From positions 11,298-75,297 of the forward strand of contig JBAZUO010000001.1 in assembly GCA_041661345.1 (NCBI GenBank): a stretch of DNA of 64,000 nucleotides, read 5' to 3'. Shown piece by piece: positions 4,325 through 63,984 of the stretch. Each line of letters begins with the position of its first letter. Within the stretch, counting starts at the first letter, position 1. The notes under the pieces were generated by a model. The model did not search any database, was not told the DNA's origin, and was given only the letters and a program-made list of their open reading frames with translations. The position numbers were made by a program, and so were the translations under genes. Source of the DNA: Candidatus Omnitrophota bacterium (GTDB lineage Bacteria; Omnitrophota; Gorgyraeia; 2-01-FULL-45-10).

Positions 4325-4385
4325 CGTGAAGTTTGCGTGCAAATTTCATCCTGAGGCTGCGACGAACAGGAGCAGCCGAAGGATC
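4325..4385. repeat. R3 double-hairpin element, copy 1
   Basis: CGTGAAGTTTGCGTGCAAATTTCATCCTGAGGCTGCGACGAACAGGAGCAGCCGAAGGAT aligns with 45406..45467 and shows compensatory changes. Confidence 0.6.
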
Positions 4386-4392
4386 TCGTTCG

Positions 4393-7300
4393 TTATGCCG
4401 CTATTAGTAAAGTCTCCATTCTGATCCTGCTTGCCTTCAATTCCTCGGGATCCATCCTGCATAAGCCCTTGAACCTCAATATCGCTTTTAGCGCAAACGC
4501 GATATTGTTCCATTCCGCATTATCGAGCAACTTCAAAATGTCATCTCCGATATCCGACCCGGAGAGTATCTTGTAATAGTAAGCGATCGCTTGCCTGTTG
4601 CCGGACATGATCGCCCTGGCAAGGCCTATTACACCTTGTAAATATAAATAATTCTCACCTGTCAATTTGTCACCCACGATCAGGACGCTGGCCTTCGCAT
4701 AATTCCTCTCTTCGTCAGACTTCCATATTTCACTACCGTCATTATCTTCTTTACTCAAGACAACCGCCAGTTTATCCTTAGACGGATTTCTCTTGATTTG
4801 TGCCCGTATTTCTTCAGGACTCAATATCGCTATCGCGCCGCTGTCCAACACCGGTTTCAGCGCGATCTTGATTCCCTGTTCCAGCTCGGTCCTGTCACCG
4901 TTTTCGATAAACAGATTCTCCGACAATAATACCGCGGCGCCGCTTCTGATATTAACATCTTTGAATATCTTGTCTATCAGATCGATAGTGCTGGAAACAT
5001 CGTTTTCTTTAACTAAAGCCTCTGCGGGTATAGTTGAAATTGTAGGCGCGACGCTTGGCTCCGGCATAACTTGCGGTATTTCACTAAAAGGCTGCGCGAG
5101 CGGCGCGCCCGGATGCGCTATCGTTTCCGTCGCCGGCATTGTCGGTTCAGTGCCGAGTATCTCATTCGAACCTTTATCGACCGTCGCAGTTGAAGCCGGC
5201 GCAGATTGCCGTGAATTAACGGCTTGAGCGGCATTTTCTTTGGCGCCAGAGGCATCTGTCGTCGGTTCGGATTGCGGAGACGGCGGCTGCGAAACCCATT
5301 GTTGCATCCAATTCCACTCGTCTTGACCAAATCGTTCGATAAAATCGGCCTGCCCGGAACAGCCCATTCGTTGCATCAATGAGAGCGCGTCCTCCTGAAG
5401 CCCATTATGCACTTTTGCTGTATTGAATATATTATCAGTAAGATGATATTTATGATCAAGCGGATTAGGCCCCGAAAATCTTATATTGCTTCCAATCTCT
5501 GATATCAAGAACCCAAGCACTTTGCGCGGATCTTTATCATGTGGTGAATATTGACCTATAAGGTCTTCCGAATATTCATCTGCCAGCCTATTAACCGCAG
5601 TATCAAATATTTTTTTCTCCATCCCTAAGCCAAAAGGATCGTAATCTGTCCGAAAAGATAGTGGGTCCGCTTCTAGCTGTCCGGCTATGTTTTCGGCTAC
5701 GCTCTTCCGGAAAGGCGGCACCATCATCGGGGTCAAATCTCGTACACTGCCAACTGCATTATCGGTATCACTAGCGTCCATAGCTTTGGCTGCCAAGTTT
5801 GCTATCTCTTCGCCATTAGACATGTCGCCGAGGACTTTCTTTATACCTTGCGCATAACCTCTATGTTTGGCTTCTGCGGCAAATGCCAAGTCATATCTTC
5901 CTAATTTATATAGCGTCTCGGCCATCGGACTGCGGAATTGTCCTATGTTAATAGGCGCCGGCGTAAATATCGAATTCACCGGTATGTGCAACAGGAAGCC
6001 TGCCATGCCCATTGCGCTTGTGATTATAAAACCGCGGCGTCTAGCAAAATTGTTAAGTTCGATATAAATATTCCATATGATACGATCAAGATCGGTCCAG
6101 TATTCGGACGGGATATTTCTAAGGCGGTCTATTTTAGCCATCAAAGAATAGACATAAGCTTCTTTTTCATCAGGATGGATACTAAGAATAGCGGTAGCTG
6201 CTATCTTAGAGGATTTACGCAATAAGCGATTTTTATCCGGGAAAAATCTGGTCGAGATACTTCTCTCTGCCCTCTGGCAGGCATCAGATATTAGGTTTTC
6301 TAATTTCGACGGCGGTTCACTCGGCGGCGCGTTGTATCGTACGTTCTTACCGAATCTCTGCTCAATATCAGCGCGGTCTTCATCGCGCGTAATCCGTCGA
6401 GTCTCTGCCGCTCGTGCCCGCATCTTTATTACATCAGGTGATATATTAATTTCCTGCTCCGCCGCGGCTGGGATAGGAGTAAGATCGGCATTGTGCTCAA
6501 AACTCATTCCCAACGTGCTAGCCAAAGATTTGAGCTTCTCACATATAAGGGGCCGAGCTTTACGCAGCGGATGCGATTCCGGAATGCTGAGTCTGGGCCT
6601 TAGCTCTATGCTACCACTATTTTGCGAGAGAGATATCTTAGCAACTAAACCGGGCACTTCATCTTTATCCGATAGATCGTTTGCATCATAAAATTCTACC
6701 GTTATATAATCACCACTGGCTCCAGATACACACCAAGAAACGCTAGGATGCTCGCTGAACGATTCTTCCTCAGGCCCGAAATGTCTTTTAAGATACGCAA
6801 ATCGATCGCGTTCATAAGCAGCCCTGGCGAACTTTATTAATCCTGTAGTTTTCGGTTTGCTAGCTTCCGCCGCGGCTGGGGCAGCGTTTTCTTCCGCCCT
6901 GTTATACGTACTTACCCATCTCCACAGCTCGTCTTCGTATTCTTCTTCGGTCTTCCAACCTCCATAATAACCGATATCATAATAGCCTTTTATTTCAAAA
7001 AATAGAAAGTTCGCAAAAATAGACAAATCACCATAGTCTCTTAGTAGGCGAACCTGCTTAACATGAAGTTTCTTTTCGTCAATCCGGCCTTCCGAATCAA
7101 GCAATTCCAAAAGAAAAGAATAAGTTTCCTTAAGGTCCATTTTTCTTGTGTGCATTCCGCGATCCTTCCAATACTCAGAAAGATTACCGATCGAAGATTG
7201 CAAATAAAGAATTTCTACCATGTAAGCTTTCGCCTCGCTTTTAATTTTACTGTACATGAGATGCCTCAAGGCGCGACGGTATTCCTTACCGCGATCATCC

Positions 7301-35550: not shown

Positions 35551-35835
35551 CTTTATAAATTTTACGGGAGGCTGCCGCTCCCGCCCCTAGGCTTTTCAAG
35601 CTATTCGTAATATGCGATGCGTCGAGTGGCTCGCAGGGACGCTCGGTTTGCTCCGGCGGCAAACCTCACTCCGGGGAAAATTTTTCATGCCGCCGCTAGC
35701 TAACAACAGCGGACCAAGCCATAAAAAATTTTCAGGCCCTGCTCGCCACATCGCCACATCGCATCTTGGAGATATGGCTGAGCAGAAAAGCCTTCAGTCG
35801 CCCCTGCCGTAAAATTTCCTGCCCGCACTCCAGGT
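35551..35835. repeat. R1 repeat, rearranged copy D (outer helix of domain 1 enclosing an inverted domain 2)
   Basis: 35557..35597 and 35784..35815 match the two strands of the R1 domain-1 closing helix. 35609..35764 is the reverse complement of R1 domain 2. Confidence 0.7.
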
Positions 35836-36121
35836 AAAATTTTTCATTTCTTAGTATTGGCGGAACTTTTGCACAACGCGTTATTCTTCTATGGCCGCCC
35901 GGGGCAGTGGGGTTGAGCCGTGAAATTTTGCTAAGGTTTAACTTACTCCCCACATAAATTGACGAAACTGTAAGCAAAAGAACAAATATATACGAAATAA
36001 CTAAAACAAAACATAAGCATCCTGGAAGAGCAAAATTAGGCGAAGCCCCCTGCCCTGGGCGGCTAACAGCATGTTGAGACGGAGGACAAAAGTTCCGCCT
36101 ACTTGTTCAACATGAAAAATT
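35836..36121. repeat. R2 palindrome-ended repeat, copy 1 (inverted relative to copy 2)
   Basis: The 241-bp core 35859..36099 is bounded by perfect 13-bp inverted repeats GGCGGAACTTTTG / CAAAAGTTCCGCC. The flanks extend the imperfect inverted repeat. It aligns as the reverse complement of 56770..57057. Confidence 0.75.
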
Positions 36122-37081
36122 TTACCTACCCAGAACCTCTTCGATTTTCGCCAGGACCTTCTTCTCCACGTCCGCGAGCTTTCCCTCGATGACGCAGCCG
36201 GATGCCTTCGTGTGCCCGCCGCCGCCAAAAGAGGATGCGATCAGGTTCACATCGACATCGCTCTTGGAGCGAAAACTGATATTGATCTTTCCGTCCGGAT
36301 CCTCCCTGAAGATCACAGCCACCTTTACGTGATTTATCGACCTGGCATAGTTCACGAACCCTTCGCTCTTCGCGGGGGCAGTACCGGTATGCTGCATCAT
36401 CGGCCTCGTGATTTCGAGATACGCGACATCCCCTGCTTTATTAATCTTGATCGTAGCAAGCACCATTCCCAAAAATTTTATCTCATCAATAGTCTTTGTT
36501 TCATAGACGCTCTCCGAAACACGCGCAGGCTCCAGTCCATAACCGAGAAGCTCACCGGCGATCTCATGAGTTGCTCCAGAGGTGTTCTCATAATTAAAAG
36601 AGCCAGTATCGGTCAGGATCGCTATATAAAGGCAGAGCGCCGACTCTTTTGTAAGCGCTACACCCATCTCCTTAAAAAGCTTATAAACTATCTCACCCGC
36701 GGAACTGGCATTCGAATCAACCCAGTTCACACTGCCAAACTTCTCATTCGAGACATGATGATCGATATTGATAATGAATTTATCTTTTGTTATCACATCC
36801 TTGACCTTGCCTGTCCTTTTAAGGGTCGGGCAATCAAGTATGATCGCCGCGTCAAAATCCGGCCTCTTAGCGATGTCGTTCGAGACCTTGTTCGTTCCGG
36901 GTAAAAATCCGTAATGTTCCGGGATGGGATCGCTATCCAATATAAAGCTCTTCTTTCCAAGGCTGTCCAAAAGCTGCTTCATCGCAAGCTGGCTTCCTAG
37001 CGAATCACCCTCCAGGTTGATGTGCGCCGTTATCAGGAAGTTGTCATGTTTCTTTATGGCTTCAACTATCTGTTTCATCAA
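36122..37081 (-). CDS. nrnA: DHH/DHHA1 family phosphoesterase (NrnA-like oligoribonuclease / pAp phosphatase)
   Basis: 319 aa with the DHH motif (NIDHH) and DHHA1 GGGGH. Confidence 0.8.
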   Translation of the reverse strand: MMKQIVEAIKKHDNFLITAHINLEGDSLGSQLAMKQLLDSLGKKSFILDSDPIPEHYGFLPGTNKVSNDIAKRPDFDAAIILDCPTLKRTGKVKDVITKDKFIINIDHHVSNEKFGSVNWVDSNASSAGEIVYKLFKEMGVALTKESALCLYIAILTDTGSFNYENTSGATHEIAGELLGYGLEPARVSESVYETKTIDEIKFLGMVLATIKINKAGDVAYLEITRPMMQHTGTAPAKSEGFVNYARSINHVKVAVIFREDPDGKINISFRSKSDVDVNLIASSFGGGGHTKASGCVIEGKLADVEKKVLAKIEEVLGR

Positions 37082-40050: not shown

Positions 40051-40454
40051 TAATTTTTACGGGTCCTGCCGCGACCTCGTCTTTTCTTTTTAGGGCTCGC
40101 ACGGGGTTCACAATAGATGAGTGAAACTCATGTTGTGTCTGTATGCCCGCCAGGATTGCCTGCAACAGGACTATTATAATTAGGGCGCGGGCTTACTATT
40201 ATGCAATCCTAAGCGGCGGGCACCCCCATCCCATGCTCGCCTCAATCAAGAAAAGCCTTCAGTCGCGTCACCCGTAAAATTTCCTGTCTGCATATCCCAG
40301 TAAAATTTTTCGCATCGCCAAAAATGTGATGTGGCGATGTGGTTTGTGAGGGCCTTAAAATTGGCCGGCAGGGTCCGGACAATTTTACGCAAGCGCGATT
40401 TTTACATGGCTAAAAATCGCGCGTCCCGAACAAACCACTCGACACAGCACATTC
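40051..40454. repeat. R1 structured intergenic repeat, copy A
   Basis: Aligns block by block with 48901..49322 and 57074..57472. It fills the gap between the xerD stop and the start of the preceding fusion gene. Confidence 0.8.
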
Positions 40455-40478
40455 GGCTGCTGTATCGAAAAATTTTCC

Positions 40479-41366
40479 CTACCCCCTCGGGTGAAACTGT
40501 TTGTGAATCGACTTTAACCGAGTCCTGTCTATATGCGTATATAATTGCGTCGTCGAGATATCCGCATGGCCCAGCATCTCCTGCACGACCCTTAAATCCG
40601 CGCCTTTCTCGAGAAGGTGTGTGGCGAAACTGTGCCTCAATGTGTGCGGCGTTATCTCTTTTTTAATACGCGCTTTGCGTGCGCATCGCTTTATCATCTT
40701 CCAGAATGACTGTCTTGATATCTTTTTACCGAGCCGCGATAAGAAGAGATGCGGGTCCTGTTTATTTTTAAGAAGCTTGGGCCTTACCCTTTCCAAATAT
40801 TTAGCGGCCGCCTCTTTGGCAGATCTTCCTATCGGAACTATCCTCTCTTTGTCACCCTTACCCTTGCACTTTATGAATCCCATATCCAGATTCAGCCCTT
40901 CCTTCGTGAGCTCCACTATCTCCGACACCCTCATCCCGGTCGCATACATAAGCTCAAGCGCCGCCTTGTCCCTTATGCCCATCCAGTCGCGTACATCGGG
41001 CGCATCTATAAGCTTGTCGACTTCGGCGATATTCAATACCGCCGGCAGATGGCGTATGAGTTTGGGGGATTCCAGGATCCCGGGGACATCGTCCTTGGCA
41101 AGGCGCTCCTGAATAAGGAATCTGTAAAACATCTTTATCGCAACGAGCGCTCTGGATATGGAATTGCCGGATATACCCTTATCCTTCAGATAAAGTAAAT
41201 AGCTCATTATATCCTGCCGCTTCACCTTATCTATATCTTTTACGCCTAGTAATTCGAGGCGTTGTATAAAATGCGAGAGGTCCGTCCCGTACGAGGTGAT
41301 CGTATTTTTACTTAAACCCCGTTCAACCGACAGATAATTCAGGAACTCTTCCAATAGCATTTTCAT
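40479..41366 (-). CDS. xerD: site-specific tyrosine recombinase XerD
   Basis: 295 aa with N-terminal FLNYLSVERGLSKNTITSYGTDL and C-terminal HTLRHSFATHLL...LGHADISTTQLYTH. Confidence 0.85.
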   Translation of the reverse strand: MKMLLEEFLNYLSVERGLSKNTITSYGTDLSHFIQRLELLGVKDIDKVKRQDIMSYLLYLKDKGISGNSISRALVAIKMFYRFLIQERLAKDDVPGILESPKLIRHLPAVLNIAEVDKLIDAPDVRDWMGIRDKAALELMYATGMRVSEIVELTKEGLNLDMGFIKCKGKGDKERIVPIGRSAKEAAAKYLERVRPKLLKNKQDPHLFLSRLGKKISRQSFWKMIKRCARKARIKKEITPHTLRHSFATHLLEKGADLRVVQEMLGHADISTTQLYTHIDRTRLKSIHKQFHPRG

Positions 41367-45408: not shown

Positions 45409-45467
45409 TGAAATTTGCGATAGCAAATTTCATCCCGAGATTGCGACGCATAGGAGCAATCGAGGGA
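45406..45467. repeat. R3 double-hairpin element, copy 2 (abuts the tRNA-Pro 5' end)
   Basis: CGTGAAATTTGCGATAGCAAATTTCATCCCGAGATTGCGACGCATAGGAGCAATCGAGGGAT. Confidence 0.6.
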
Positions 45468-45486
45468 TTAACTATTGCTAGTTAAC

Positions 45487-48900: not shown

Positions 48901-49322
48901 AGATTTTCCGGGTCCTGCCGCGACCTCGTCTTTTCTTTCTAGGGCTCGCATGGGGTTCACTATCAAGTAGTGTTATCCACGGTGTGTCTGTATGCCCACC
49001 AGGATTACCTCCGAGAACGACGTCCTATATAGCCATAGATTTGTGGGGATGTAATCCTAAACGGCGGGCACCCCTATCCCATGCTCGCCCATACGCGAAA
49101 AGTCCTCGGTCGCGTCACCCGTAAAATTTCCTGCCCACACCTCAGTAAAATTTTTCGATTCCTTCGATAATGTGATGTGACGATGTGGTGAGCAGGGCCT
49201 ACAATTTTTTATGGCTTGGTCCGCTGGCTAAAGGATAGCGGCGGCATAAAAAATTTTACGGAGCGAGGACTGCCGCTGGAGCAGTCCGAGCGTCCCTGCG
49301 AACCACTCGACACAGCACATTC
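48901..49322. repeat. R1 structured intergenic repeat, copy B
   Basis: Fills the ribH-nusB gap. It has the same block order as copies A and C, with divergent hairpin loops and a compensatory stem change. Confidence 0.8.
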
Positions 49323-49340
49323 TTGTAAAAACAAAAAATT

Positions 49341-49805
49341 TTATATTTTCTCGTAGAGATTCGCCATCTCGATCGCAGTCATTGCGGCGTCACGGCCTTT
49401 GTTGCCGTCCTTCGTGCCGGCCCTCTCGATCGCCTGCTCAAGATTATCAGCTGTTATAACACCAAATATACATGGAACGCCTGTATCCAGAGACGCTTTC
49501 GCGATCCCCTTGGCGGCTTCGCTCGCGACGAATTCGAAATGCGGCGTAGCGCCCCTTATAACCGTACCCAGGCATATCACACCGTCGTATTTCTTCGACT
49601 TGGCAAGCTTGAACGCAACCATCGGAATCTCAAACGAGCCCGGCACCCACATCACGTCCTGTGCGGAGTCCTGCGCGCCGTGCCTCACAAGTGTGTCGAT
49701 ACACCCGTCAAGAAGTTTCGACGATATGAATTCATTGAACCGCGATATAACTATCGCGAACTTCTTACCCTTTGCGGATAGATCCGCTTTCACCACATTT
49801 GCCAT
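49341..49805 (-). CDS. ribH: 6,7-dimethyl-8-ribityllumazine synthase
   Basis: 154 aa with [21 protein letters not shown] and [15 protein letters not shown]. Confidence 0.95.
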
Positions 49806-51091: not shown

Positions 51092-51127
51092 TCATATTTA
51101 CTTTAAACTGTTTACTAAACATCCAAT

Positions 51128-51252
51128 TTATCTTCTACCATCCAGACTTTACTGTCGGCACTTGAATCTCACAAGTTCAGCCTCAAAATTTTCTGAAGCT
51201 CGCGGGCTTTCACCGCCGGTCGAGGAATTTCACCTCACCCCGAAGAATGCTC
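51128..51252 (-). promoter_or_regulatory. FMN riboswitch (RFN element) aptamer
   Basis: The minus strand reads GCATTCTTCGGGGTGAGGTGAAATTCCTCGACCGGCGGTGAAAGCCCGCGAGC...GCCGACAGTAAAGTCTGGATGGTAGAAGA. This matches the conserved RFN core upstream of ribBA. Confidence 0.9.
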
Positions 51253-56769: not shown

Positions 56770-57057
56770 GAAATTTTTCGTGTTTAGCATAGAGGCGGAA
56801 CTTTTGCCATTAGCCTTAACATGCTGTTAGCCACCCGGAGCAGGGGGCTTCGCCTAATTTTGCTTTTCCAGGATGTTTACGTTTTATTTTAGTTATTTTG
56901 TATATATTTGTTATTTTGTTAATTAAGTAGTCAATATACTTTAGGTATTAGGTAAACCATAGCAAAATCTAACGGCTCAACCCCACTGCCCCGGGTGGCT
57001 GTATAAGAATAACGTGGTGTACAAAAGTTCCGCCGATGCTAAGAAGCGAAAAATTTC
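56770..57057. repeat. R2 palindrome-ended repeat, copy 2
   Basis: The 241-bp core 56794..57034 is bounded by GGCGGAACTTTTG / CAAAAGTTCCGCC. The extended imperfect inverted repeats are GAAATTTTTCGTGTTTAGCATAGA / GATGCTAAGAAGCGAAAAATTTC. Confidence 0.75.
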
Positions 57058-57073
57058 TTGAGGAGAGAGCAGG

Positions 57074-57472
57074 AAATTTTACGGGTCCTGCCGCTTCCTC
57101 GGCTTTTCTTTCCAGGGCTCGCACGGGGTTCACAATAGATTAAGGTAAATCACTTGTTGTGTCTGCATGCCCGCCAGGATTGCCTACAACTGGACTATTA
57201 AACTGGGTCGCGGGCTTACTATTATGCAATCCTAAACGGCGGGCACCCCCATCCCATGCTCGCCCATAATCGAAAAGCCTTCAGTCGCGTCACCCGTAAA
57301 ATTTTTCATCTCGCAGAAATGTGATGTGGCGATGTGGTGAGCAGGGCCTTAAAATTTTTTATGGATTGGTCCGCTGGCGAAATCAAGTAGCGGCATAAAA
57401 AATTTTACTGGAGCGAGGGCCGCCGCTGGAGAGGCCCGAGCGTCCCTGCGAACCACTCGACACAGCACATTC
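57074..57472. repeat. R1 structured intergenic repeat, copy C
   Basis: Closest to copy A in domain 1 and to copy B in domain 2. It lies between R2 copy 2 and the giant-2 terminator. Confidence 0.8.
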
Positions 57473-57567: not shown

Positions 57568-60500
57568 TTATAACGACTTCATCGCCGCCTCTTCGGCTGT
57601 AACAAATTCTCTCATATGGCCGTTAATATCCTCTTCCTTTATCGGAGGCAATATTATCTCAATATCTCCTTTTTTTAATCTCTCCATAAAATCATTCATG
57701 GTCAATTTACTTAACTCTTGATCTTTATATGATATGGAAGATAAAAGGTTAATCACCTTGGCATAATAAGCCGGGTCTTTATTAACATTGAGCTCCAGGA
57801 TTCCCAATCCCAGTGCTATGTGCCCACCTATCGAAAGATATCCGGAGCGATTGTTGCCCCCATCCCTGGCAACATCCCTTACTGTAAAATACTGTTTGGC
57901 TATATCCTCATAAGCTTCAACTTTTTCATTTGTATTTCCGTCAATATAGATTACCGTATTCTTGCCGGTAAGCACGCCTTCAGTATTAGTATAGATTTTA
58001 TCTCTTAATTGCTCAAGAGTTCCATCATAGAACGTAACCGTTATGTTACCTATTCTAAATTGTTTGTTAAGCCCATTTCTGATTGCCGTCCAACTGCTTT
58101 GAACTTTGTTCTGTAACGCGCCGTTGGCTAAATTACAGAGTCTAGGAGATAAGCTTGGTATAAATAAATAAACTGGCTTGTCCGGTACGTTTGTGGACTT
58201 CAGAAGCTCCTTAGCATTTTTCATTACACCGACAACATATTTTACTGTTTCGAGAATGTCTATTGCCCTGGCATCACCTGCTGCGAGTCCTTTGATGACT
58301 TCTCTCAGGTTCTTCATGTTTGCGTCTTTGGCAAATTCACTGTCGCGTCCAACAATTTCGTCAAATTTTTCTAGTGGATCAATCGCCTTTGAGGCCGGCG
58401 CAACTTCCTGCCCTTTTTGATATATTTGCAGCAATTCTGCTAATGGCATTTCAAAACGCGCTATCGCAGCATCGTTTATGCCCGCATACGAAACCACGGT
58501 CTGAACTCCCTTAACATTAATTACAGCAGTTGCTGTTTCGTAAACAACGCCGCCTACATCACCTCCTCGCAATAGATCGGCTTGAGGCTGCGGCAATTCG
58601 ACAGGCCTTCCAGAAAATTCTAATCTTTTACTAGCCGGGTTATAATGCAAGATAGCCACTGCGGTTACGTATTTTTTCTTATCCGCGCCCTCTATCGATT
58701 TTGCTTTATGCGTGAACGCGAGATACACATCCTTTCCCCTCTCCGGCAATGCGCAGATAATGGTGTTAAAACCTATGTGGTGAACATCCCCTCCCGGACT
58801 CATGATAGTCGAATTGAATACAGTATGATCATCATCCTTCCAATATTGCGCATCTTTATCGGCACACGCTTCAAACGCCTTATCCAGGCTATCGAACATA
58901 TAAACCTGTATTGCTGATTTTTTATTGGGTTCATCAGCCCTGTCAATTACGGCAACTCTTCCGTTTTCCAACTGAACTATATACGCATTTTTACTATTTA
59001 CGGTAGGATTTCCCAACCTGCGGATTTCTGTTTCTCTGGTCCCATCCTCGTTCAGATATACAAAATAGGTATGCCATTCTGATCCGTTATTATCAGGCAT
59101 CGTAAATGTCATGGCCCAACTTTCGCCGATCTTCATTATCCTCGGATCTTCGGCGCCTTCGACAAAAACCTCCTTTTCGGCAATAAGCTCAGTCTCTGTC
59201 ATGCCGGGATTAAGTCTCACTATATCCGATTTATGCGGCTTGCTCGTGTCGGTGTTTTTAGAAACGCGCCGCGCGTAATGACAAATTACATTTCCGCCCA
59301 CCTCTAATGTAGCAGGATTGAAATATTTATATTCTTTATCGCTTGGGATCATGAGCGTCCCGTCCCTGGTTTTAGCAGCTTGTTCTATATCAGTAACCGG
59401 CGCAGCATGGCTAACGATATAATCGCGTAAAATATCAGGATTCATACCAACAAGCGCTTCACGATTATCGATACGGTATATACCGGTATTGGGCTCGCTT
59501 GTCGTACCGGGATACAGCACAGCTGGTATCTCACCCGAGGCCTTCGCGATCTCCGTACTGTCCGGCGGTTCCGTGACAAAAATAGTACCCGTATCAGAGA
59601 TAGAAAATAGGTGCCGAAGGGCCAGATAATTCATCAGGTCATCTATGGTAGTTGCCTGGCTTCTATTCCTATTTTCATTTATAATTTTCTGATAATACCG
59701 CATTGGATATAGCACATTCCTGAAAAATATGAACTGTGGGGCCTGTCCAGCATTGCCTAGTATATTTTGGATGTTTTTCCCATCAAAAACATTTATATTA
59801 CAGAGGTAGATATCAACCTTCAACTTACCCCTTAACGACGATAACGTTTTGGTAAACTCGTGGTCCTCGATTTTGTTTTCAGCCTTTGGAATATTTTCCA
59901 GCCTGGGATCCATTACGTAAACGGATATTGCCCAATCGGCGGGGTTCTCGCCGACTTCCTGCAATTGTGTGTGCAGAGCCCCGAGCGTTCGGAGGATTTC
60001 GAGAGGCCTTTTACCTGTGCCTACAAAACATAACGTAATCTTTTTTTCGGATATCGCGCTGTTCTTTTTCCCGATGATATATTCCTTGAACCTCCCTTTC
60101 ACGTCCGCCAACTGAGGAAATAAGCTTTGTCTCCTATCGTTATCGCCATACGCGACAGAGTCATTGCCTACATGATATGTAAGAACTCTCTCGACAGTAT
60201 TGTTCAATGTGTCTTCCGGATAACCAAGCCCGGAGATCTCTTCCTTAAGAGATGCCCGCAGTGAATCCATATCAGATGCCTGCAGCTGTCGGAGAATATG
60301 TATTTTAAAGTCATCCCTGCTTAGCTTGTTGGCCGGCGCAATGGCCGCGGCCGGTTTTTCGTTATGCATAGCAGCACCATCTATGATGCTCTGGCGCAGA
60401 GTAACAACACCGGGCGTAAGGCTAGCGCCCTCTATCGGACTGACACCTCTCGCCTCGGTTGGGAAAGCCGCCATGCCGCGGTATTCGCCCTCCATATTCC

Positions 60501-63500
60501 TACCCATGCCATATAGTTGCGTAACTACTCCGTTCTGCCTGCTCATATACAAAGCAGCTATTGACAAGAATATGTCGTGCGCGGTAGATTCATATTCCTG
60601 GCCGTACCTATCTACGAATAGCTTTACATATTTACTCAAGTTATCGATTAAATCGCCGTCGGAGCCCCATTGCCTGGCCCCTTCCTCGCCGATCAAGATT
60701 CTCAAAGCATTTCTTAGAACTCGTTTCCTGTATGCTAATCGCAGACCCTCCTCGTTCTGCGGCCCTCTTTCGGATATATTATTTACTTTAACTGTATCCG
60801 ACACGGTATAGATCTTGCTAAAATCGATAAGCTTCACATTCCCATCAGGCATGACAAGAAAATTTTCCAGGTTATCTATGTCATTATCCACATAGCTATC
60901 GCCCATTTGCGCTGAATCGAGCAAAAACGCCGCACCCAGTATTATCTGTGCCGCGATATGAAGCATCCTCGCGCCGCTTGTGTTCCAATCTTCTACATTG
61001 TCCGTCAATGTTTTAAGATCTGCCACGTTCGGCACGAATCTGTCTATCTCGACGACGTCTTCTCTGCGCCCATATTTAATCCTGAACACTGCTATATTAT
61101 CCGCAAAATACGGATTATTCTTTGTAGCCGAAATGATCTTATTGAGTCTATTTTCGGCCTGGGCTGTACGCCGGGAAAGAATATCTTCGGATACATTCTC
61201 CTCGCCTGGCCTTTCCGGGGTTATTATCTTCACAACGGCATCTTCTCTACCCGAAACGGCGCCTCTGGCGATCATCGCAAGCCCGTCCGCGCCCCTGCCG
61301 ACAAATTTCGTTATAACCGCGTGTTTCAAAACTTCCGGATTGGCACAGGCATTCAGTATCCTGAATACGCCGTTATAGACAAAGTGCTCTCTTACCTTAC
61401 GGCTCATCTTTTGTTTCGATGCCGCCGACCGTTCTACGACGATTTCCTTCTTGCGGCATTGTATCAGCCAGTTAAGTACGCTATTCCTTGCCATATCGAT
61501 GGGCCTTATTCCGAAGAAATCGCAGACCGCCCTTATATTTAACAGCCAACCCTGCCTGTCTGTATTTTTCAACTGCCTGAATACATTCCATATCTGTTCA
61601 ATATATTTAGCTGCCTCTTCCGGCTCACCTGATTCCGCGGCCTTCCGCCATTCTTCCAGTAACCCCCAGGTACTGCCCGGCTCTTTTTTTGATGCCTCGA
61701 CCTTGTCTTTTAGATCATCCCACTCTTTTCCGGCAAGGCCGACCGATTTCAGGATTTCGTATTCTATCGCAGGAGTGGGTATGGCGGAAGGGGCATTCAT
61801 TTCGGTACCCGCCAATAGCCCGCCGAGCTTCCCACTGTTTCCAAACCCCGCTACCGCCTCTTCTGTCAGATAAAATTTCGAGACATCGCTTGCGATCGCA
61901 TGAAGCCTCTGCAATATCAGGACAAGATCGCTTGAGTCAAGATGCCTTTCCTGGCCCTTTGCTATACCCTTCTCCTTTTCTTTATCGATATAATTCCGCA
62001 GATTCTCTTTCGTCAGGCAACTCTGAATGAACTTTTCGAATTTGGCCGATAAATAATCACCTTGCGACCTGGTTATCGCGATAAAACTATCTCTTATAAC
62101 CACAATATCATCTTCTGTCAGGTTGTCGAGATCGCTCGCGTTCTTACGCATATCCGTAAGTATCCCTGCTATCGTCCTGCTGAACCCGCGCTCCATATGG
62201 GCGAGCCTATATTCGTCGTAGGCTTTCTTGATGATTTTTTTGAATTCAGCCCGCGCCGCCGCAACACCTCTTTCTATAAGCATATTCTGCACATGCCTGG
62301 CATAGTAATGCGCTTCATCCTCTGATATACCCTGGCTTCGCAAACCTATCTCTACAATTTCATGCAAAATATCGCTGACTATAAGCCTTGCCTCATGCGT
62401 CAGCTGGTCGATATTAACGGCATTGGTGAAACCGAGCCTTCTCAATTGTTCCAGCCTGTTTCTCGGAAATACTATTTTGCGGACACCATTATGCATTATT
62501 ATTGCGGCACCGAGCCTGCCCCCCTCCGACGTAATACGCTTTTCTCCAACATCCATCAAAAGAATCCTATTTTCAAATCCGCTTACTATATCGCCGCCAA
62601 AACCCATCGGTGCCAAAAGTTCGAGTATTTTCCGAATATCCTCCTTATCCTCCGGCGTATGTTTGCTATTAAGCGCAGCTACCAATCTATCCAGATTCTT
62701 CGGCGCAAGCTCGTCCTTCGCTTTTAGTCTTCCGGCCGTCGCCTCCATCTTATCCGCAGCCTCTCTCACCGCCTCCAGCAACTCTTCACCTTCGTGCGCG
62801 GCGCCTTCGACAACTCCCGGCTTCGCCACGGTGACTGCTACGGATGGCGCTGCAGTGGCAGTTATATCGGCCAGCTCTTGCCTACGCTGACTCTCTGTCA
62901 TCTTCTCAAGAGACCTGAGATATTCCAGGACGCCCACCTTTTTCTTATTTACAATGAAGGACATAAAATATTGGTTCAATTCAATGCCTAAACGATCACA
63001 TATAGCGCTGATCTCTTCCGCTTCTTTGCCACCCAATTTTTCATCGATACCCGCGGCTCCGGCTCCGTAGCGCGTCTCTGCCTCCGGTGATGACATTCGA
63101 TTAAGAACTCTTATTGCAACCAGAACGTTTTCCTGCGCTTTCTGGGTAAGGCCGATCAAATCCCCCTTCACAGCTTCTTCATCATACAGACCGGTCTTTA
63201 TATTCAACATCAGGCTTATTCTTGTGCATTCTTCATCCAATCCATTAAAAGCGATGGCTCTATCGATATCACAATTCAGGATATTTCCATCCTCACCCAC
63301 AGTTGCCCAGACTATGATATCTTCGCCGATAACTTTACCGCTATTGCGTACACCGTTCATTTTATTGATATTATTATAGACAATCTGAAATGACGCAATT
63401 GCCGCCTTCCCATGGCTATATGCCGAATATATATCGGTTATGGTCGTGTCTATCGGAACCATGGAATCACTTTCGCGGTCTTTCCGCTCAGCCTTAACCG

Positions 63501-63984
63501 TATCGCCCTGCATATCGGTTATACGCGCCATACCTTCGTTTGCATATACTACAATATCTCCGATATCAAGACTCGGAGTTATGGGTACTTTAATGCCGTC
63601 CCCCGAACGGGTAAAATACCCGAATGCTTCCTTAAAACACGATCGCACATCATTGTTATCCCAAAAAGCTGTCAATTTCATTAAAAATGGTTTCAGCTCA
63701 ACCAGCATCTCTCTTTCATCATACGTATATTCATCGCCAACTACTTCATTGATAGCCGTTAAAAGACTATAAACGGATTTAAACACATCTTCTAATTCTT
63801 CCGCGTATTGTACGCGCCCTTTATTGAATTGCGTGTAATATACAGCTGCCTCCAGAATATTGAATAATATCAGTTTATTAGACTCATATTTATCGGCAAC
63901 ATCGAATTCATCCATATCTTCCAAAAATGCCAATTTTTCGGCATATTTAACCATGTCTCTATTTGCCATAATCCTCAGCCACAA
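57568..63984 (-). CDS. giant multi-domain protein 2 (at least 2,133-2,138 aa) with a kinase-like region and a GH130/DUF377-like glycosidase-like region
   Basis: Track ORF. TTG 63984 lies 11 nt after GGAGG, and ATG 63969 is the alternative. The frame has no stop up to nt 64000, so the true N-terminus may lie outside the window. Confidence 0.8.
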   Translation of the reverse strand: MWLRIMANRDMVKYAEKLAFLEDMDEFDVADKYESNKLILFNILEAAVYYTQFNKGRVQYAEELEDVFKSVYSLLTAINEVVGDEYTYDEREMLVELKPFLMKLTAFWDNNDVRSCFKEAFGYFTRSGDGIKVPITPSLDIGDIVVYANEGMARITDMQGDTVKAERKDRESDSMVPIDTTITDIYSAYSHGKAAIASFQIVYNNINKMNGVRNSGKVIGEDIIVWATVGEDGNILNCDIDRAIAFNGLDEECTRISLMLNIKTGLYDEEAVKGDLIGLTQKAQENVLVAIRVLNRMSSPEAETRYGAGAAGIDEKLGGKEAEEISAICDRLGIELNQYFMSFIVNKKKVGVLEYLRSLEKMTESQRRQELADITATAAPSVAVTVAKPGVVEGAAHEGEELLEAVREAADKMEATAGRLKAKDELAPKNLDRLVAALNSKHTPEDKEDIRKILELLAPMGFGGDIVSGFENRILLMDVGEKRITSEGGRLGAAIIMHNGVRKIVFPRNRLEQLRRLGFTNAVNIDQLTHEARLIVSDILHEIVEIGLRSQGISEDEAHYYARHVQNMLIERGVAAARAEFKKIIKKAYDEYRLAHMERGFSRTIAGILTDMRKNASDLDNLTEDDIVVIRDSFIAITRSQGDYLSAKFEKFIQSCLTKENLRNYIDKEKEKGIAKGQERHLDSSDLVLILQRLHAIASDVSKFYLTEEAVAGFGNSGKLGGLLAGTEMNAPSAIPTPAIEYEILKSVGLAGKEWDDLKDKVEASKKEPGSTWGLLEEWRKAAESGEPEEAAKYIEQIWNVFRQLKNTDRQGWLLNIRAVCDFFGIRPIDMARNSVLNWLIQCRKKEIVVERSAASKQKMSRKVREHFVYNGVFRILNACANPEVLKHAVITKFVGRGADGLAMIARGAVSGREDAVVKIITPERPGEENVSEDILSRRTAQAENRLNKIISATKNNPYFADNIAVFRIKYGRREDVVEIDRFVPNVADLKTLTDNVEDWNTSGARMLHIAAQIILGAAFLLDSAQMGDSYVDNDIDNLENFLVMPDGNVKLIDFSKIYTVSDTVKVNNISERGPQNEEGLRLAYRKRVLRNALRILIGEEGARQWGSDGDLIDNLSKYVKLFVDRYGQEYESTAHDIFLSIAALYMSRQNGVVTQLYGMGRNMEGEYRGMAAFPTEARGVSPIEGASLTPGVVTLRQSIIDGAAMHNEKPAAAIAPANKLSRDDFKIHILRQLQASDMDSLRASLKEEISGLGYPEDTLNNTVERVLTYHVGNDSVAYGDNDRRQSLFPQLADVKGRFKEYIIGKKNSAISEKKITLCFVGTGKRPLEILRTLGALHTQLQEVGENPADWAISVYVMDPRLENIPKAENKIEDHEFTKTLSSLRGKLKVDIYLCNINVFDGKNIQNILGNAGQAPQFIFFRNVLYPMRYYQKIINENRNRSQATTIDDLMNYLALRHLFSISDTGTIFVTEPPDSTEIAKASGEIPAVLYPGTTSEPNTGIYRIDNREALVGMNPDILRDYIVSHAAPVTDIEQAAKTRDGTLMIPSDKEYKYFNPATLEVGGNVICHYARRVSKNTDTSKPHKSDIVRLNPGMTETELIAEKEVFVEGAEDPRIMKIGESWAMTFTMPDNNGSEWHTYFVYLNEDGTRETEIRRLGNPTVNSKNAYIVQLENGRVAVIDRADEPNKKSAIQVYMFDSLDKAFEACADKDAQYWKDDDHTVFNSTIMSPGGDVHHIGFNTIICALPERGKDVYLAFTHKAKSIEGADKKKYVTAVAILHYNPASKRLEFSGRPVELPQPQADLLRGGDVGGVVYETATAVINVKGVQTVVSYAGINDAAIARFEMPLAELLQIYQKGQEVAPASKAIDPLEKFDEIVGRDSEFAKDANMKNLREVIKGLAAGDARAIDILETVKYVVGVMKNAKELLKSTNVPDKPVYLFIPSLSPRLCNLANGALQNKVQSSWTAIRNGLNKQFRIGNITVTFYDGTLEQLRDKIYTNTEGVLTGKNTVIYIDGNTNEKVEAYEDIAKQYFTVRDVARDGGNNRSGYLSIGGHIALGLGILELNVNKDPAYYAKVINLLSSISYKDQELSKLTMNDFMERLKKGDIEIILPPIKEEDINGHMREFVTAEEAAMKSL

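What the first reader, a model, noticed from the sequence alone, without database searches (positions are those of the whole stretch)
57074..57472. R1 family: about 400-420-nt two-domain, helix-closed repeat filling four intergenic gaps, a candidate novel structured RNA or mobile cassette system
Three copies lie in the same orientation (40051..40454, 48901..49322, 57074..57472), plus the rearranged copy at 35551..35835.
- Conserved blocks: GGGTCCTGCCGC, AGGGCTCGCAYGGGGTTCAC, GTGTCTGYATGCCCRCCAGGATTRCC, GYAATCCTAARCGGCGGGCACCCC, ATCCCATGCTCGCC, GTCGCGTCACCCGTAAAATTT, AATGTGATGTGRCGATGTGGT and ACCACTCGACACAGCACATTC.
- Domain 1 (about 230 nt) is closed by AAATTTTACGGGT..CGCGAC..CTTTTC pairing with GAAAAG..GTCGCG..ACCCGTAAAATTT. 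It contains the hairpin TGCCCGCC-AGGATTGC [about 40-nt variable loop] GCAATCCT-AARC-GGCGGGCA.
- Domain 2 (about 165 nt) is closed by a 20-bp imperfect stem and holds two variable hairpins.
- Compensatory changes: AGGATTGC/GCAATCCT in copies A and C versus AGGATTAC/GTAATCCT in copy B, plus two pairs in the domain-2 stem of copy D.
All copies lie between co-directional minus-strand genes. No reading frame is conserved across copies. I do not recognise it as RNase P, tmRNA, SRP, 6S, OLE, GOLLD, ROOL, HEARO or any riboswitch.
Basis: seen in the sequence. Interest (0 to 1): 0.8.

Follow-up and report, generated by a model that had tools for sequence, protein, structure and literature searches.

The report
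Mosaic palindromic mobile repeats in Omnitrophota
The 400-base "two-domain" repeat is real, but it is best read as two separate small hairpin-forming mobile DNA elements that land on TA at gene junctions of Candidatus Omnitrophota genomes and pile up next to each other, not as a new RNA gene.

Summary
The repeat exists as described: three co-oriented copies plus a rearranged fourth, non-coding, with no Rfam match. It is not one two-domain unit.

- **Two modules.** Domain 2 (D2) occurs alone in at least nine species-level Candidatus Omnitrophota genomes. Domain 1 (D1) occurs alone elsewhere. Copy D is a D1 shell around an inverted D2.
- **Ends.** D2 and a third family (R3) end in TA + AAATTTTTCG ... 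CGAAAAATTT + TA. D1 sits in a TA between two such ends.
- **Insertion.** The closest relatives have a 12-nt ribH-nusB junction with a single TA. The window and a more distant genome carry D2+D1 there, flanked by TA on each side. Two other junctions in other genomes and the window's xerD-cca junction also have filled and empty states.
- **Stop codons.** The end's TAA is the upstream gene's stop codon in 11 loci.
- **Pairing.** The hairpins covary strongly (D2: 28 of 48 pairs), but G·U is about 1% on either strand. That points to DNA-level palindromes rather than RNA.
- **Strand bias.** D2 lies antisense to the flanking genes in 21 of 22 loci. This is unexplained.
- **Partner.** No transposase was found.

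Verdict: new MITE-like mosaic repeat families. The structured-RNA reading is disfavoured but not excluded.

The parts
40051..40285 (+). Copy A, module D1 (long variant). AAATTT-TA-CGGGTCCTGCCGCGA ... TCGCGTCACCCG-TA-AAATTT; its left end abuts the SD and start of the cca-like gene (start at 40039).
   Evidence: (E 1.7e-79)
40286..40320 (+). Copy A linker: a second GTAAAATTTTTCG end plus about 10 nt, which is the left terminal inverted repeat of the D2 unit.
   Evidence: (family D3)
40321..40454 (+). Copy A, D2 core, short type: P1 / tandem G.A / P2 / hairpins Ha and Hb.
   Evidence: (131.2 bits)
40455..40478 (+). Copy A right end of the D2 unit (..TCGAAAAATTTTCCC), directly next to the xerD stop codon (TAG, 40479-40481 on the minus strand).
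48901..49132 (+). Copy B, module D1; its left end ..GATTTTCCGGG is followed on the gene strand by TA-AGGAG and the nusB ATG (48889).
   Evidence: (E 3e-75)
49133..49166 (+). Copy B linker with a second GTAAAATTTTTCG end.
49167..49322 (+). Copy B, D2 core, long type.
   Evidence: (86.5 bits)
49323..49343 (+). Copy B right end of the D2 unit (CAAAAAATTT-TA); read on the gene strand, TAAAATTTTTTG supplies the ribH stop codon TAA (49341-49343).
57074..57307 (+). Copy C, module D1; its right GTAAAATTTTTC end also serves as the left end of the adjoining D2.
   Evidence: (E 1.1e-78)
57316..57472 (+). Copy C, D2 core, long type; it has no right terminal repeat.
   Evidence: (87.6 bits)
35557..35597 (+). 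Copy D, D1-type left arm (AAATTT-TA-CGGGAGGCTGCCGC..GGCTTTTC), next to the truB SD and start.
35610..35767 (-). Copy D, D2 core in inverted orientation, nested inside the D1-type shell; P1 carries compensatory changes.
   Evidence: E 3.1e-35, minus strand; 72.7 bits
35785..35817 (+). Copy D, D1-type right arm (GAAAAGCC..GTCGCCCCTGCCG-TA-AAATTT).
   Evidence: (family D3)
35833..36126 (+). R3 module, about 290 nt, with the same TA+AAATTTTTC ... GAAAAATTT+TA ends as D2; closed by GGCGGAACTTTTG / CAAAAGTTCCGCC.
56780..57060 (-). Second R3 copy (87% identical), in the opposite orientation, directly left of copy C.

Best explanation
R1 is a mosaic of two separate non-autonomous, palindromic mobile DNA elements of the MITE kind.

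**The modules**
- D2 unit, about 200 nt: TA + AAATTTTTCG + about 10 nt + an imperfect 21-bp stem P1 enclosing a three-way junction + about 10 nt + CGAAAAATTT + TA.
- D1, 150-235 nt: inverted ends CGGGTCCTGCCGCGA / TCGCGTCACCCG.
- A third family, R3, shares D2's ends.

**How I think it works**
- The elements insert at a TA and duplicate it. They prefer a TA inside AAATTT|TA|AAATTT.
- Each insertion recreates that context at its own two ends. New insertions therefore land beside or inside old ones, which builds nests such as D2+D1 (copies A-C) or a D1 shell around D2 (copy D).
- In these compact genomes the tolerated TAs are those of stop codons at operon junctions. Because the element starts with A, TA+A restores a TAA stop, so the upstream gene is unharmed.
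- The composite can also move as a unit.

**Shown:** multicopy spread in the phylum, inverted ends, TA on both sides versus one TA in empty sites, presence/absence at orthologous junctions, nesting, decay products, and Watson-Crick-only hairpin conservation.

**Inferred:** mobilisation in trans by an unidentified transposase; that the conserved P1 and hairpins matter for that step or for DNA stability; and that D2's strand bias comes from selection on the read-through transcript.
For: **Distribution and modularity**
- An exact D2 20-mer is found in 20 loci from 9 species-level Omnitrophota MAGs.
- D2 occurs without D1 in most of them. D1 occurs without D2 in L021 and L026-L028.
- The inverted ends sit 9-14 nt from the D2 core on both sides in nearly all copies.

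**Filled versus empty sites**
- ribH-nusB, empty in L030: GAGAAGATA-TA-AGGAGAG.
- ribH-nusB, filled in the window: GAGAAAATA-TA-AAATTTTTTG...GGAAAATC-TA-AGGAGAC. L032 is filled in the same way.
- L030 is the closer relative of the window, at 82-87% nucleotide identity against 71-82% for L032.
- Further filled/empty pairs: L001/L028 and L009/L004 (ruvC-ruvA), and xerD-cca.

**Stop codons**
- The stop codon lies inside the terminal repeat in 11 loci, and 0-9 nt before it in 7 more.

**Decay and rearrangement**
- Minimal, half and internally deleted copies exist.
- The GGCGTTTGTG/CACAACGCC helix is inside P1 in L009 but outside it in L007.

**Sequence relationships**
- Copies from different species at non-orthologous loci are 90-94% identical. 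Orthologous-site copies are 61-81% identical, and the two host-gene pairs measured are about 65-74% identical.

**Pairing and context**
- 811 of 879 pair cells are Watson-Crick; G·U accounts for 8 cells on one strand and 9 on the other.
- All frames are closed. There is no Rfam hit.
- All 47 neighbouring ORFs scanned against Pfam were ordinary chromosomal genes or had no Pfam match; none was a transposase.
Against: - No transposase or autonomous copy with matching ends was found. Only about 330 kb of sequence was available to look in.
- TA is palindromic, so apart from the ribH-nusB site (and less cleanly three others) it cannot be told apart from an extension of the inverted repeat. A 3-bp TAA/TAG duplication, or an insertion without duplication, fits almost as well.
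- Cut-and-paste transposition does not predict D2's 21-of-22 strand bias.
- Dead MITE copies should not keep their internal hairpins through compensatory change at orthologous sites (window A versus L015, 81% identical, while the flanking genes are 69-70%).
- The tandem G·A and the loop motifs (GGCAGCGTNC, CATGG) are conserved, which looks like recognition of a folded strand.
- The ribH-nusB pattern needs either two precise losses or two identical gains.
Confidence: 0.65

Rival explanations
1. Hairpin (single-strand DNA) transposition, as in REPIN/RAYT or the IS200/IS605 miniature derivatives. A HUH/Y1 enzyme recognises the folded P1 hairpin, with its fixed mismatches and bulge, on the lagging-strand template. 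It inserts next to a short target such as TTAC or TA, and excises precisely.
For: - Strong strand bias: the D2 '+' form is on the C/T-rich strand in 21 of 22 loci.
- P1 is an imperfect palindrome with conserved A·G and G·A mismatches and a bulged T.
- Hairpins are kept by Watson-Crick-only compensation.
- Empty sites carry no footprint, in a phylogenetic pattern that suggests precise loss.
- Some copies stay for long periods at orthologous sites.
- AAATTTTAC| precedes D1 on both strands.
Against: - No Y1/RAYT gene was seen.
- The P1 arms are not themselves short palindromes like REPs.
- The units have true terminal inverted repeats with TA on both sides. IS200/IS605 elements lack these.
- D1 and R3 show no consistent strand bias.
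- Strand bias is confounded with gene direction. Of the two exceptions, L007 sits in a roughly 1.1-kb non-operon spacer and the other is the nested window copy D, which fits selection on transcripts.
Confidence: 0.15
2. Structured RNA. D2 and/or D1 act as RNA, either as intercistronic elements within operon transcripts (processing, stability or coupling right after the stop codon) or as a separately transcribed small RNA. The repeats would have spread and been kept for that function.
For: - D2: 93% of pair cells are paired, 28 of 48 pairs change on both sides, 0 of 500 shuffles reach this, and slid controls pair at 31-48%.
- D1: 6 covarying pairs.
- Conserved tandem G·A, junction and loop sequences.
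- Variable-length helices (L002, L009).
- Fixed orientation relative to genes.
- Placement exactly at stop codons in conserved operons: ribH-nusB, ruvC-ruvA, rbfA-truB.
Against: - G·U is about 1% with no strand asymmetry. The two-sided to one-sided change ratio is 97:6 cells.
- The form carrying the RNA-like G·A motif is antisense to the genes, and no promoter is evident.
- D1's orientation differs between lineages.
- D1's core is deleted at the L032 ribH-nusB site.
- Half and minimal copies exist.
- The closest relatives do without the element at the same junctions.
- No Rfam family matches.
Confidence: 0.15
3. The AAAATTTT-type ends are binding or uptake sites, for a nucleoid protein or a DNA-uptake signal. 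These would have been amplified as inverted pairs at gene ends, and the interiors would be incidental.
For: - GTAAAATTT occurs 17 times in the window against 1.4 expected.
- It occurs in inverted pairs at gene ends.
- Competence-type genes (cinA in the window) are present.
Against: - Nearly all occurrences belong to the repeat units.
- The interiors are themselves conserved, structured families.
- The insertion/deletion behaviour involves the whole unit.
Confidence: 0.03

Closest known systems
TA-duplicating bacterial MITEs (Correia/NEMIS elements of Neisseria; RUP of Streptococcus pneumoniae, linked to IS630-Spn1). Comparison from my own knowledge.
   Same: - 100-250 nt and non-coding, with terminal inverted repeats and TA at both ends.
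- Intergenic and co-transcribed with neighbouring genes.
- The whole element folds into a long hairpin.
- Filled and empty sites occur between related genomes.
   Different: - No matching transposase is known here.
- The interior is a conserved branched structure that covaries across species.
- Strong strand bias for D2.
- The ends (AAATTTTTCG) recreate the preferred target, and insertion occurs in stop codons.
REPIN/RAYT systems and BIME mosaics (PMC3116915, PMC3337134; bioRxiv 10.1101/2021.07.10.451892; abstracts listed, the papers themselves were not read)
   Same: - Extragenic, hairpin-forming repeats (abstract).
- Long persistence and mostly vertical inheritance in lineages (abstracts).
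- Hairpin kept by compensatory change; mosaic combinations of a few motifs at gene ends (both from my own knowledge).
   Different: - The P1 arms are not REP-like short palindromes.
- The units are two to four times larger.
- TA-flanked terminal inverted repeats are present.
- No RAYT was found.
BOX elements of Streptococcus pneumoniae (boxA-boxB(n)-boxC). Comparison from my own knowledge.
   Same: Modular intergenic repeats assembled from a few submodules in variable number, with stable predicted secondary structure and an unknown mobilising enzyme.
   Different: - Different sequences and phylum.
- Here each module carries its own inverted ends, and the modules also occur alone.
IS200/IS605 miniature derivatives (PATEs). 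Comparison from my own knowledge.
   Same: Small non-coding hairpin elements, strand-biased, with precise excision and no footprint.
   Different: Those lack terminal inverted repeats and duplications and carry distinct left and right subterminal hairpins. No TnpA or TnpB is nearby, and no IS605-type RNA family matched.

Membership tests
MITE (non-autonomous DNA transposon) | Small (under about 500 bp), non-coding, multicopy | tested here: met
   Modules are 130-290 nt. All frames are closed. There are 4 copies in the window and 20 loci in 9 species-level genomes.
MITE (non-autonomous DNA transposon) | Terminal inverted repeats | tested here: met
   AAATTTTTCG / CGAAAAATTT sits 9-14 nt from the D2 core on both sides. 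R3 has the same ends. D1 has CGGGTCCTGCCGCGA / TCGCGTCACCCG.
MITE (non-autonomous DNA transposon) | Target-site duplication, seen by comparing filled and empty sites | tested here: met
   At ribH-nusB there is one TA in the empty L030, L031 and L033 and a TA on each side of the insert in the window and L032. The same reading fits xerD-cca, L001/L028 and L009/L004 less cleanly because the flanks have diverged. TA versus TAA/TAG is not resolved.
MITE (non-autonomous DNA transposon) | Autonomous partner encoding a transposase with the same ends | not testable with these tools
   No transposase was found among 47 neighbouring ORFs scanned against Pfam. Nothing matched in plasmid, phage or viral collections.
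REPIN/RAYT | Two short palindromic REP sequences in inverted orientation | tested here: not met
   The P1 arms (GAATGTGATGTGGCGATGTGGT / ACCACTCGACACAGCACATTC) pair with each other and are not themselves palindromes. Local flank-arm hairpins exist in only about 8 of 20 copies.
REPIN/RAYT | Single-copy RAYT (Y1 transposase) gene flanked by the repeats | not testable with these tools
   None was seen in the roughly 330 kb held.
IS200/IS605-derived miniature element | No terminal inverted repeats and no duplication; different left and right subterminal hairpins; insertion 3' of a fixed 4-5-nt target | tested here: not met
   Terminal inverted repeats and TA on both sides are present. The strand bias is the only shared trait.
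Known structured RNA families (Rfam 15, including OLE, GOLLD, ROOL, HEARO, IS605-type RNAs and ribozymes) | Covariance-model match at or near gathering score | tested here: not met
   The window at gathering score gives only the FMN riboswitch and tRNA-Pro. Copies B and C at E<=10 give only chance hits of 19 and 11 bits.
Structured RNA in general | Covariation with G·U intermediates, asymmetric between strands | tested here: not met
   Covariation is strong, but there are 8 G·U cells on one strand against 9 on the other out of 879, and 811 are Watson-Crick.
Integron attC / gene cassettes | Imperfect palindromes bounding promoterless cassettes next to intI | tested here: not met
   The elements sit between syntenic housekeeping genes (ribH-nusB, ruvC-ruvA, xerD-cca). 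The adjacent tyrosine recombinase is a conserved XerD, 76-91% identical across Omnitrophota.

The most novel reading that the evidence does not exclude
D2, and perhaps D1, is more than a passive MITE. It would be a phylum-wide folded nucleic-acid element whose branched structure (conserved mismatches, tandem G·A, loop motifs) is read in one strand only. Two routes are open: a still unknown hairpin-specific mobilisation enzyme coupled to replication, or host machinery acting on operon transcripts just after the stop codon. Either would explain the 21-of-22 strand bias and the compensatory maintenance at orthologous sites, which ordinary cut-and-paste MITEs do not.
Probability: 0.2. Interest if true: 0.7.

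Novelty: new member of a known kind. Interest (0 to 1): 0.35.

Why it matters
- **New repeat families.** I found no literature on repeats in Candidatus Omnitrophota, an uncultivated phylum with compact genomes. These families show how mobile DNA can survive there: it inserts into the TA of stop codons, regenerates the stop, and recreates its own target so that nests form at operon junctions.
- **Assembly.** The repeats break assemblies. Several loci have scaffold gaps or contig ends inside D2 or D1 (L003, L008, L011, L012, L016, L018, L029).
- **Annotation.** They inflate apparent intergenic structure and can be mistaken for RNA genes.
- **Open questions.** The strand bias and the structure conservation are unexplained. 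They could lead to the mobilising enzyme or to an effect on operon expression.

Tried and rejected
- **Rfam.** The whole window at gathering score, and copies B and C at E<=10, gave nothing relevant.
- **Promoter idea.** I considered GTAAAATTT (TAAAAT) as a general -10 element. Window genes have ordinary TTGACA/TATAAT-like promoters and most lack the motif. No -35 sits at the right spacing, and the scan near copy C found nothing inside the repeat.
- **Coding.** All six frames are closed in all copies.
- **G·U versus A·C strand test.** No asymmetry, so it does not identify a transcribed strand. Fold-energy differences point in opposite directions for D2 (+ form more stable in 18 of 20) and D1 (- form more stable in 8 of 10), so they are not decisive.
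- **Partner protein.** None of the 47 flanking ORFs scanned against Pfam is a transposase; they are ordinary chromosomal genes or have no Pfam match. The adjacent XerD is the conserved chromosomal one.
- **Widely spaced inverted ends.** The interval in L018 holds NYN, DUF6941 and trpA genes, not a transposase.
- **Other collections.** Plasmid, phage and viral searches found no match.
- **Metagenome scan.** Three of the nine hits (L022, L023, L025) were unrelated chance matches.
- **Literature.** Nothing on Omnitrophota repeats.
- **Integron attC reading.** Rejected on gene context.

Full report
**1. Observation**

The repeat is real.
- The repeat finder recovers copies A, B and C in register.
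- Profile searches give E-values of 1e-75 to 1e-80 for domain 1 (D1) and 1e-32 to 1e-52 for domain 2 (D2). They also detect the fourth copy, with D2 on the opposite strand.
- All the conserved blocks, the closing stems and the AGGATTGC/GCAATCCT to AGGATTAC/GTAATCCT change are present.
- Copy C folds far better than shuffles on both strands: z = -5.0 on + and -6.3 on -.
- No Rfam family matches. Every reading frame is closed.
- The window is a chromosomal stretch of a Candidatus Omnitrophota MAG. The genes are ordinary chromosomal ones: recA, ftsK, pnp, rpsO, ribF, truB, nrnA, rbfA, cca, xerD, ligA, ribD, nusB, ribH, ribBA, smc and two giant ORFs.

**2. It is not one two-domain unit**

- A 20-mer from the D2 3' arm hits 20 loci in nine species-level Omnitrophota MAGs. 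In nearly all of them D2 stands alone, at 130-180 nt.
- A D1 21-mer finds full D1 copies in L024 and L029, and a short 150-nt D1 variant in L021, L026, L027 and L028. The short variant lacks the large TGCCCGCC hairpin and has no D2 nearby.
- Copy D is a D1-type shell whose interior is D2 in inverted orientation.
- A third 290-nt family, R3, adjoins copies C and D in opposite orientations.
- Other small hairpin modules and a divergent D2-like family occur in the related loci.
- One helix (GGCGTTTGTG/CACAACGCC) lies inside P1 in two L009 copies but outside P1 in L007.
- Minimal copies exist (P1+P2 only in L019; P1 only in L020), as do half copies (L013, L014, L017).

**3. Structure**

D2 is a 21-bp imperfect stem P1 with a fixed A·G, a fixed G·A and a bulged T. 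It is followed by a tandem G·A, stem P2 and two hairpins, Ha and Hb.

On a covariance-model alignment of 19 copies:

| Measure | Value |
|---|---|
| Pair cells that are paired | 93.2% |
| Pairs changed on both sides | 28 of 48 (97 cells) |
| Shuffles reaching this | 0 of 500 |
| Slid controls, cells paired | 31-48% |

This alignment was fitted to the model, and P1 conservation is partly an ascertainment effect of the 20-mer search.

D1's shared helices give 88.7% paired and six covarying pairs from about three lineages.

The important qualifier concerns G·U pairs. Of 879 D2 pair cells, 811 are Watson-Crick. One-sided changes number about 6 cells against 97 two-sided. Hairpins kept as perfect Watson-Crick palindromes on both strands look like DNA-level palindromes, or wholesale helix replacement, rather than RNA-style drift through wobble pairs.

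**4. Ends and insertion sites**

- In nearly all copies the D2 core is flanked at 9-14 nt by xTAAAATTTTTCG on one side and CGAAAAATTTTAx on the other. R3 has the same ends.
- D1 is CGGGTCC...GTCACCCG set in AAATTT-TA--TA-AAATTT.
- Read on the gene strand, the TAA of the end is the stop codon of the upstream long ORF in 11 loci, covering different genes and species. In 7 more the stop lies 0-9 nt before it.

Orthologous junctions give filled and empty states.

ribH-nusB:

| Locus | State | Sequence at the junction |
|---|---|---|
| L030, L031 | empty, 12 nt | GAGAAGATA-TA-AGGAGAG |
| L033, L034 | empty, 13 nt | TAA-AGGAGAGG |
| window | filled | GAGAAAATA-TA-AAATTTTTTG...[D2][D1]...GGAAAATC-TA-AGGAGAC |
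| L032 | filled | GGTG-TA-AAATTTTTCG...GGAAAATT-TA-AGGAGG |

This is a TA (or TAA) duplication. L030 is the window's closest relative, at 82-87% nucleotide identity over four genes against 71-82% for L032. The pattern therefore needs either two precise losses or two identical gains. L032's D1 has lost its core.

Other junctions:
- xerD-cca is empty in L037 and L039. In the window, L015 and L036 it carries an end-repeat within 0-6 nt after the xerD stop, but the content differs: D2+D1, hairpin+D2, and hairpin+another module.
- L001 is filled and L028 empty. ruvC-ruvA is filled in L009 and empty in L004.

**5. Population pattern**

- D2 copies from different species at unrelated loci are 90-94% identical (L001, L005, L015, L009a).
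- Copies at orthologous sites are only 61-81% identical and can be of different subtypes (L002/L006).
- The two host-gene pairs measured (L001/L028 and L004/L009) are about 65-74% identical.
- The D1-linker-D2 composite recurs with homologous linkers at five or more loci: window A and B, L024, L032 and L008. It probably also moves as a unit.
- No copy was found in plasmid, phage or viral collections.

**6. Strand bias (unexplained)**

- It lies on the C/T-rich strand in 21 of 22 loci. The two-sided binomial is about 1e-5, but not all copies are independent.
- The exceptions are window D, which is nested in a D1 shell, and L007. L007 is nested in another palindrome and sits in a roughly 1.1-kb spacer between an RNase H gene and mraZ.
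- D1 and R3 show no consistent bias.
- Gene direction and replication direction are confounded here.
- Cut-and-paste transposition does not predict the bias. Selection against one orientation in read-through transcripts is my preferred inference. A replication-coupled single-strand mechanism is the alternative.

**7. Interpretation**

I read R1 as a nest of MITE-like elements with about 65% confidence.
- **Supporting signatures:** inverted ends plus TA duplication, filled and empty sites, decay products, nesting, and cross-species near-identity.
- **Self-reinforcing target:** the ends begin AAATTT, so each insertion recreates AAATTT|TA|AAATTT-type targets. This explains why modules accumulate in the same gaps.
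- **Harmless landing site:** insertion into the TA of a stop codon regenerates TAA. This explains tolerance at tight operon junctions.
- **Mobilising enzyme:** not identified. None of the 47 flanking ORFs scanned is a transposase; they are ordinary chromosomal genes or have no Pfam match.

The rivals are a hairpin/HUH (REPIN- or IS200/IS605-like) mechanism at 0.15, a functional structured RNA at 0.15, and binding or uptake sites at 0.03.

**8. Comparison and novelty**

The system works like the TA-duplicating bacterial MITEs (Correia, RUP). In its mosaic and persistence aspects it resembles BIME/REPIN and BOX elements. These comparisons rest on my own knowledge plus the REPIN paper abstracts listed.
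- It meets the MITE criteria that could be tested.
- It fails the REP-doublet and IS200/IS605 criteria.
- It matches no Rfam family.
- I found no literature on Omnitrophota repeats.

I rate it as new families of a known kind, with interest 0.35. The unusual residue is the strand bias, the compensatory maintenance of a branched fold, and the phylum-wide conservation of the P1 arms. That residue carries the more novel reading, at probability about 0.2.

Noticed in passing
window 35833-36126 (+) and 56780-57060 (-): R3 is a third repeat family of about 290 nt, with the two copies 87% identical. It is closed by GGCGGAACTTTTG/CAAAAGTTCCGCC and has the same TA+AAATTTTTC ends as D2. It has an A-rich centre with promoter-like hexamers. 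Relatives occur in L006, L012 and L027.
   Followed up: partly
window 4339-4384 and 45423-45468; L008 about 2750-2790: A 46-nt repeat, GCAAATTTCATCCTGAGGCTGCGACG..GCAGCCGAAGGAT (83% identical), containing a hairpin. One copy lies before the 3' end of the giant ORF and the other next to tRNA-Pro.
   Followed up: no
window 51126-51251 (-): An FMN riboswitch (104.6 bits) upstream of ribBA-ribH. Repeat copy B therefore sits inside a riboswitch-controlled riboflavin operon that continues into nusB.
   Followed up: no
window 4393-25434 (-) and 57568-63984+ (-): Giant ORFs of 7013 aa and more than 2138 aa. The second runs off the window and has a weak GH130-like stretch. Internal 42-nt repeats at 6431 and 7892 lie inside the first.
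   Followed up: no
L011, L012, L016, L018 (NN inside D2); L003, L008, L029 (contig ends inside D2 or D1): Scaffold gaps and contig ends in public MAGs fall inside these repeats. The families fragment Omnitrophota assemblies.
   Followed up: partly
L015 1520-1560 and 1720-1750; L003 160-190; L036 990-1010: A small hairpin module (GGAATCCCC-loop-GGGGATTC / CCCCTCTCGGGG) is inserted between the terminal repeat and the D2 core, or stands with other modules.
   Followed up: no
L011 991-1142 (-): A divergent family with D2-like architecture (closing stem, AAAATTTC hairpin, second hairpin) but unrelated stem sequences. It scored 41.5 bits with the D2 model.
   Followed up: no
L013 about 1585-1612; L017 about 5563-5590: The hairpin CTAACCTGG..CCAGGTTAG directly abuts truncated D2 3' halves in two unrelated loci. 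It may be the end of another element that cut D2.
   Followed up: no
L009 2511-3257 (-): An AbiGi-like (abortive-infection antitoxin) gene lies between two D2 copies in the SO_2017_LW4_139 MAG.
   Followed up: no
L009 6843-7049: In L009 the ruvC reading frame appears to run through the terminal repeat and end at a TAG just before the D2 core. The insertion may have replaced the last codons of ruvC.
   Followed up: partly
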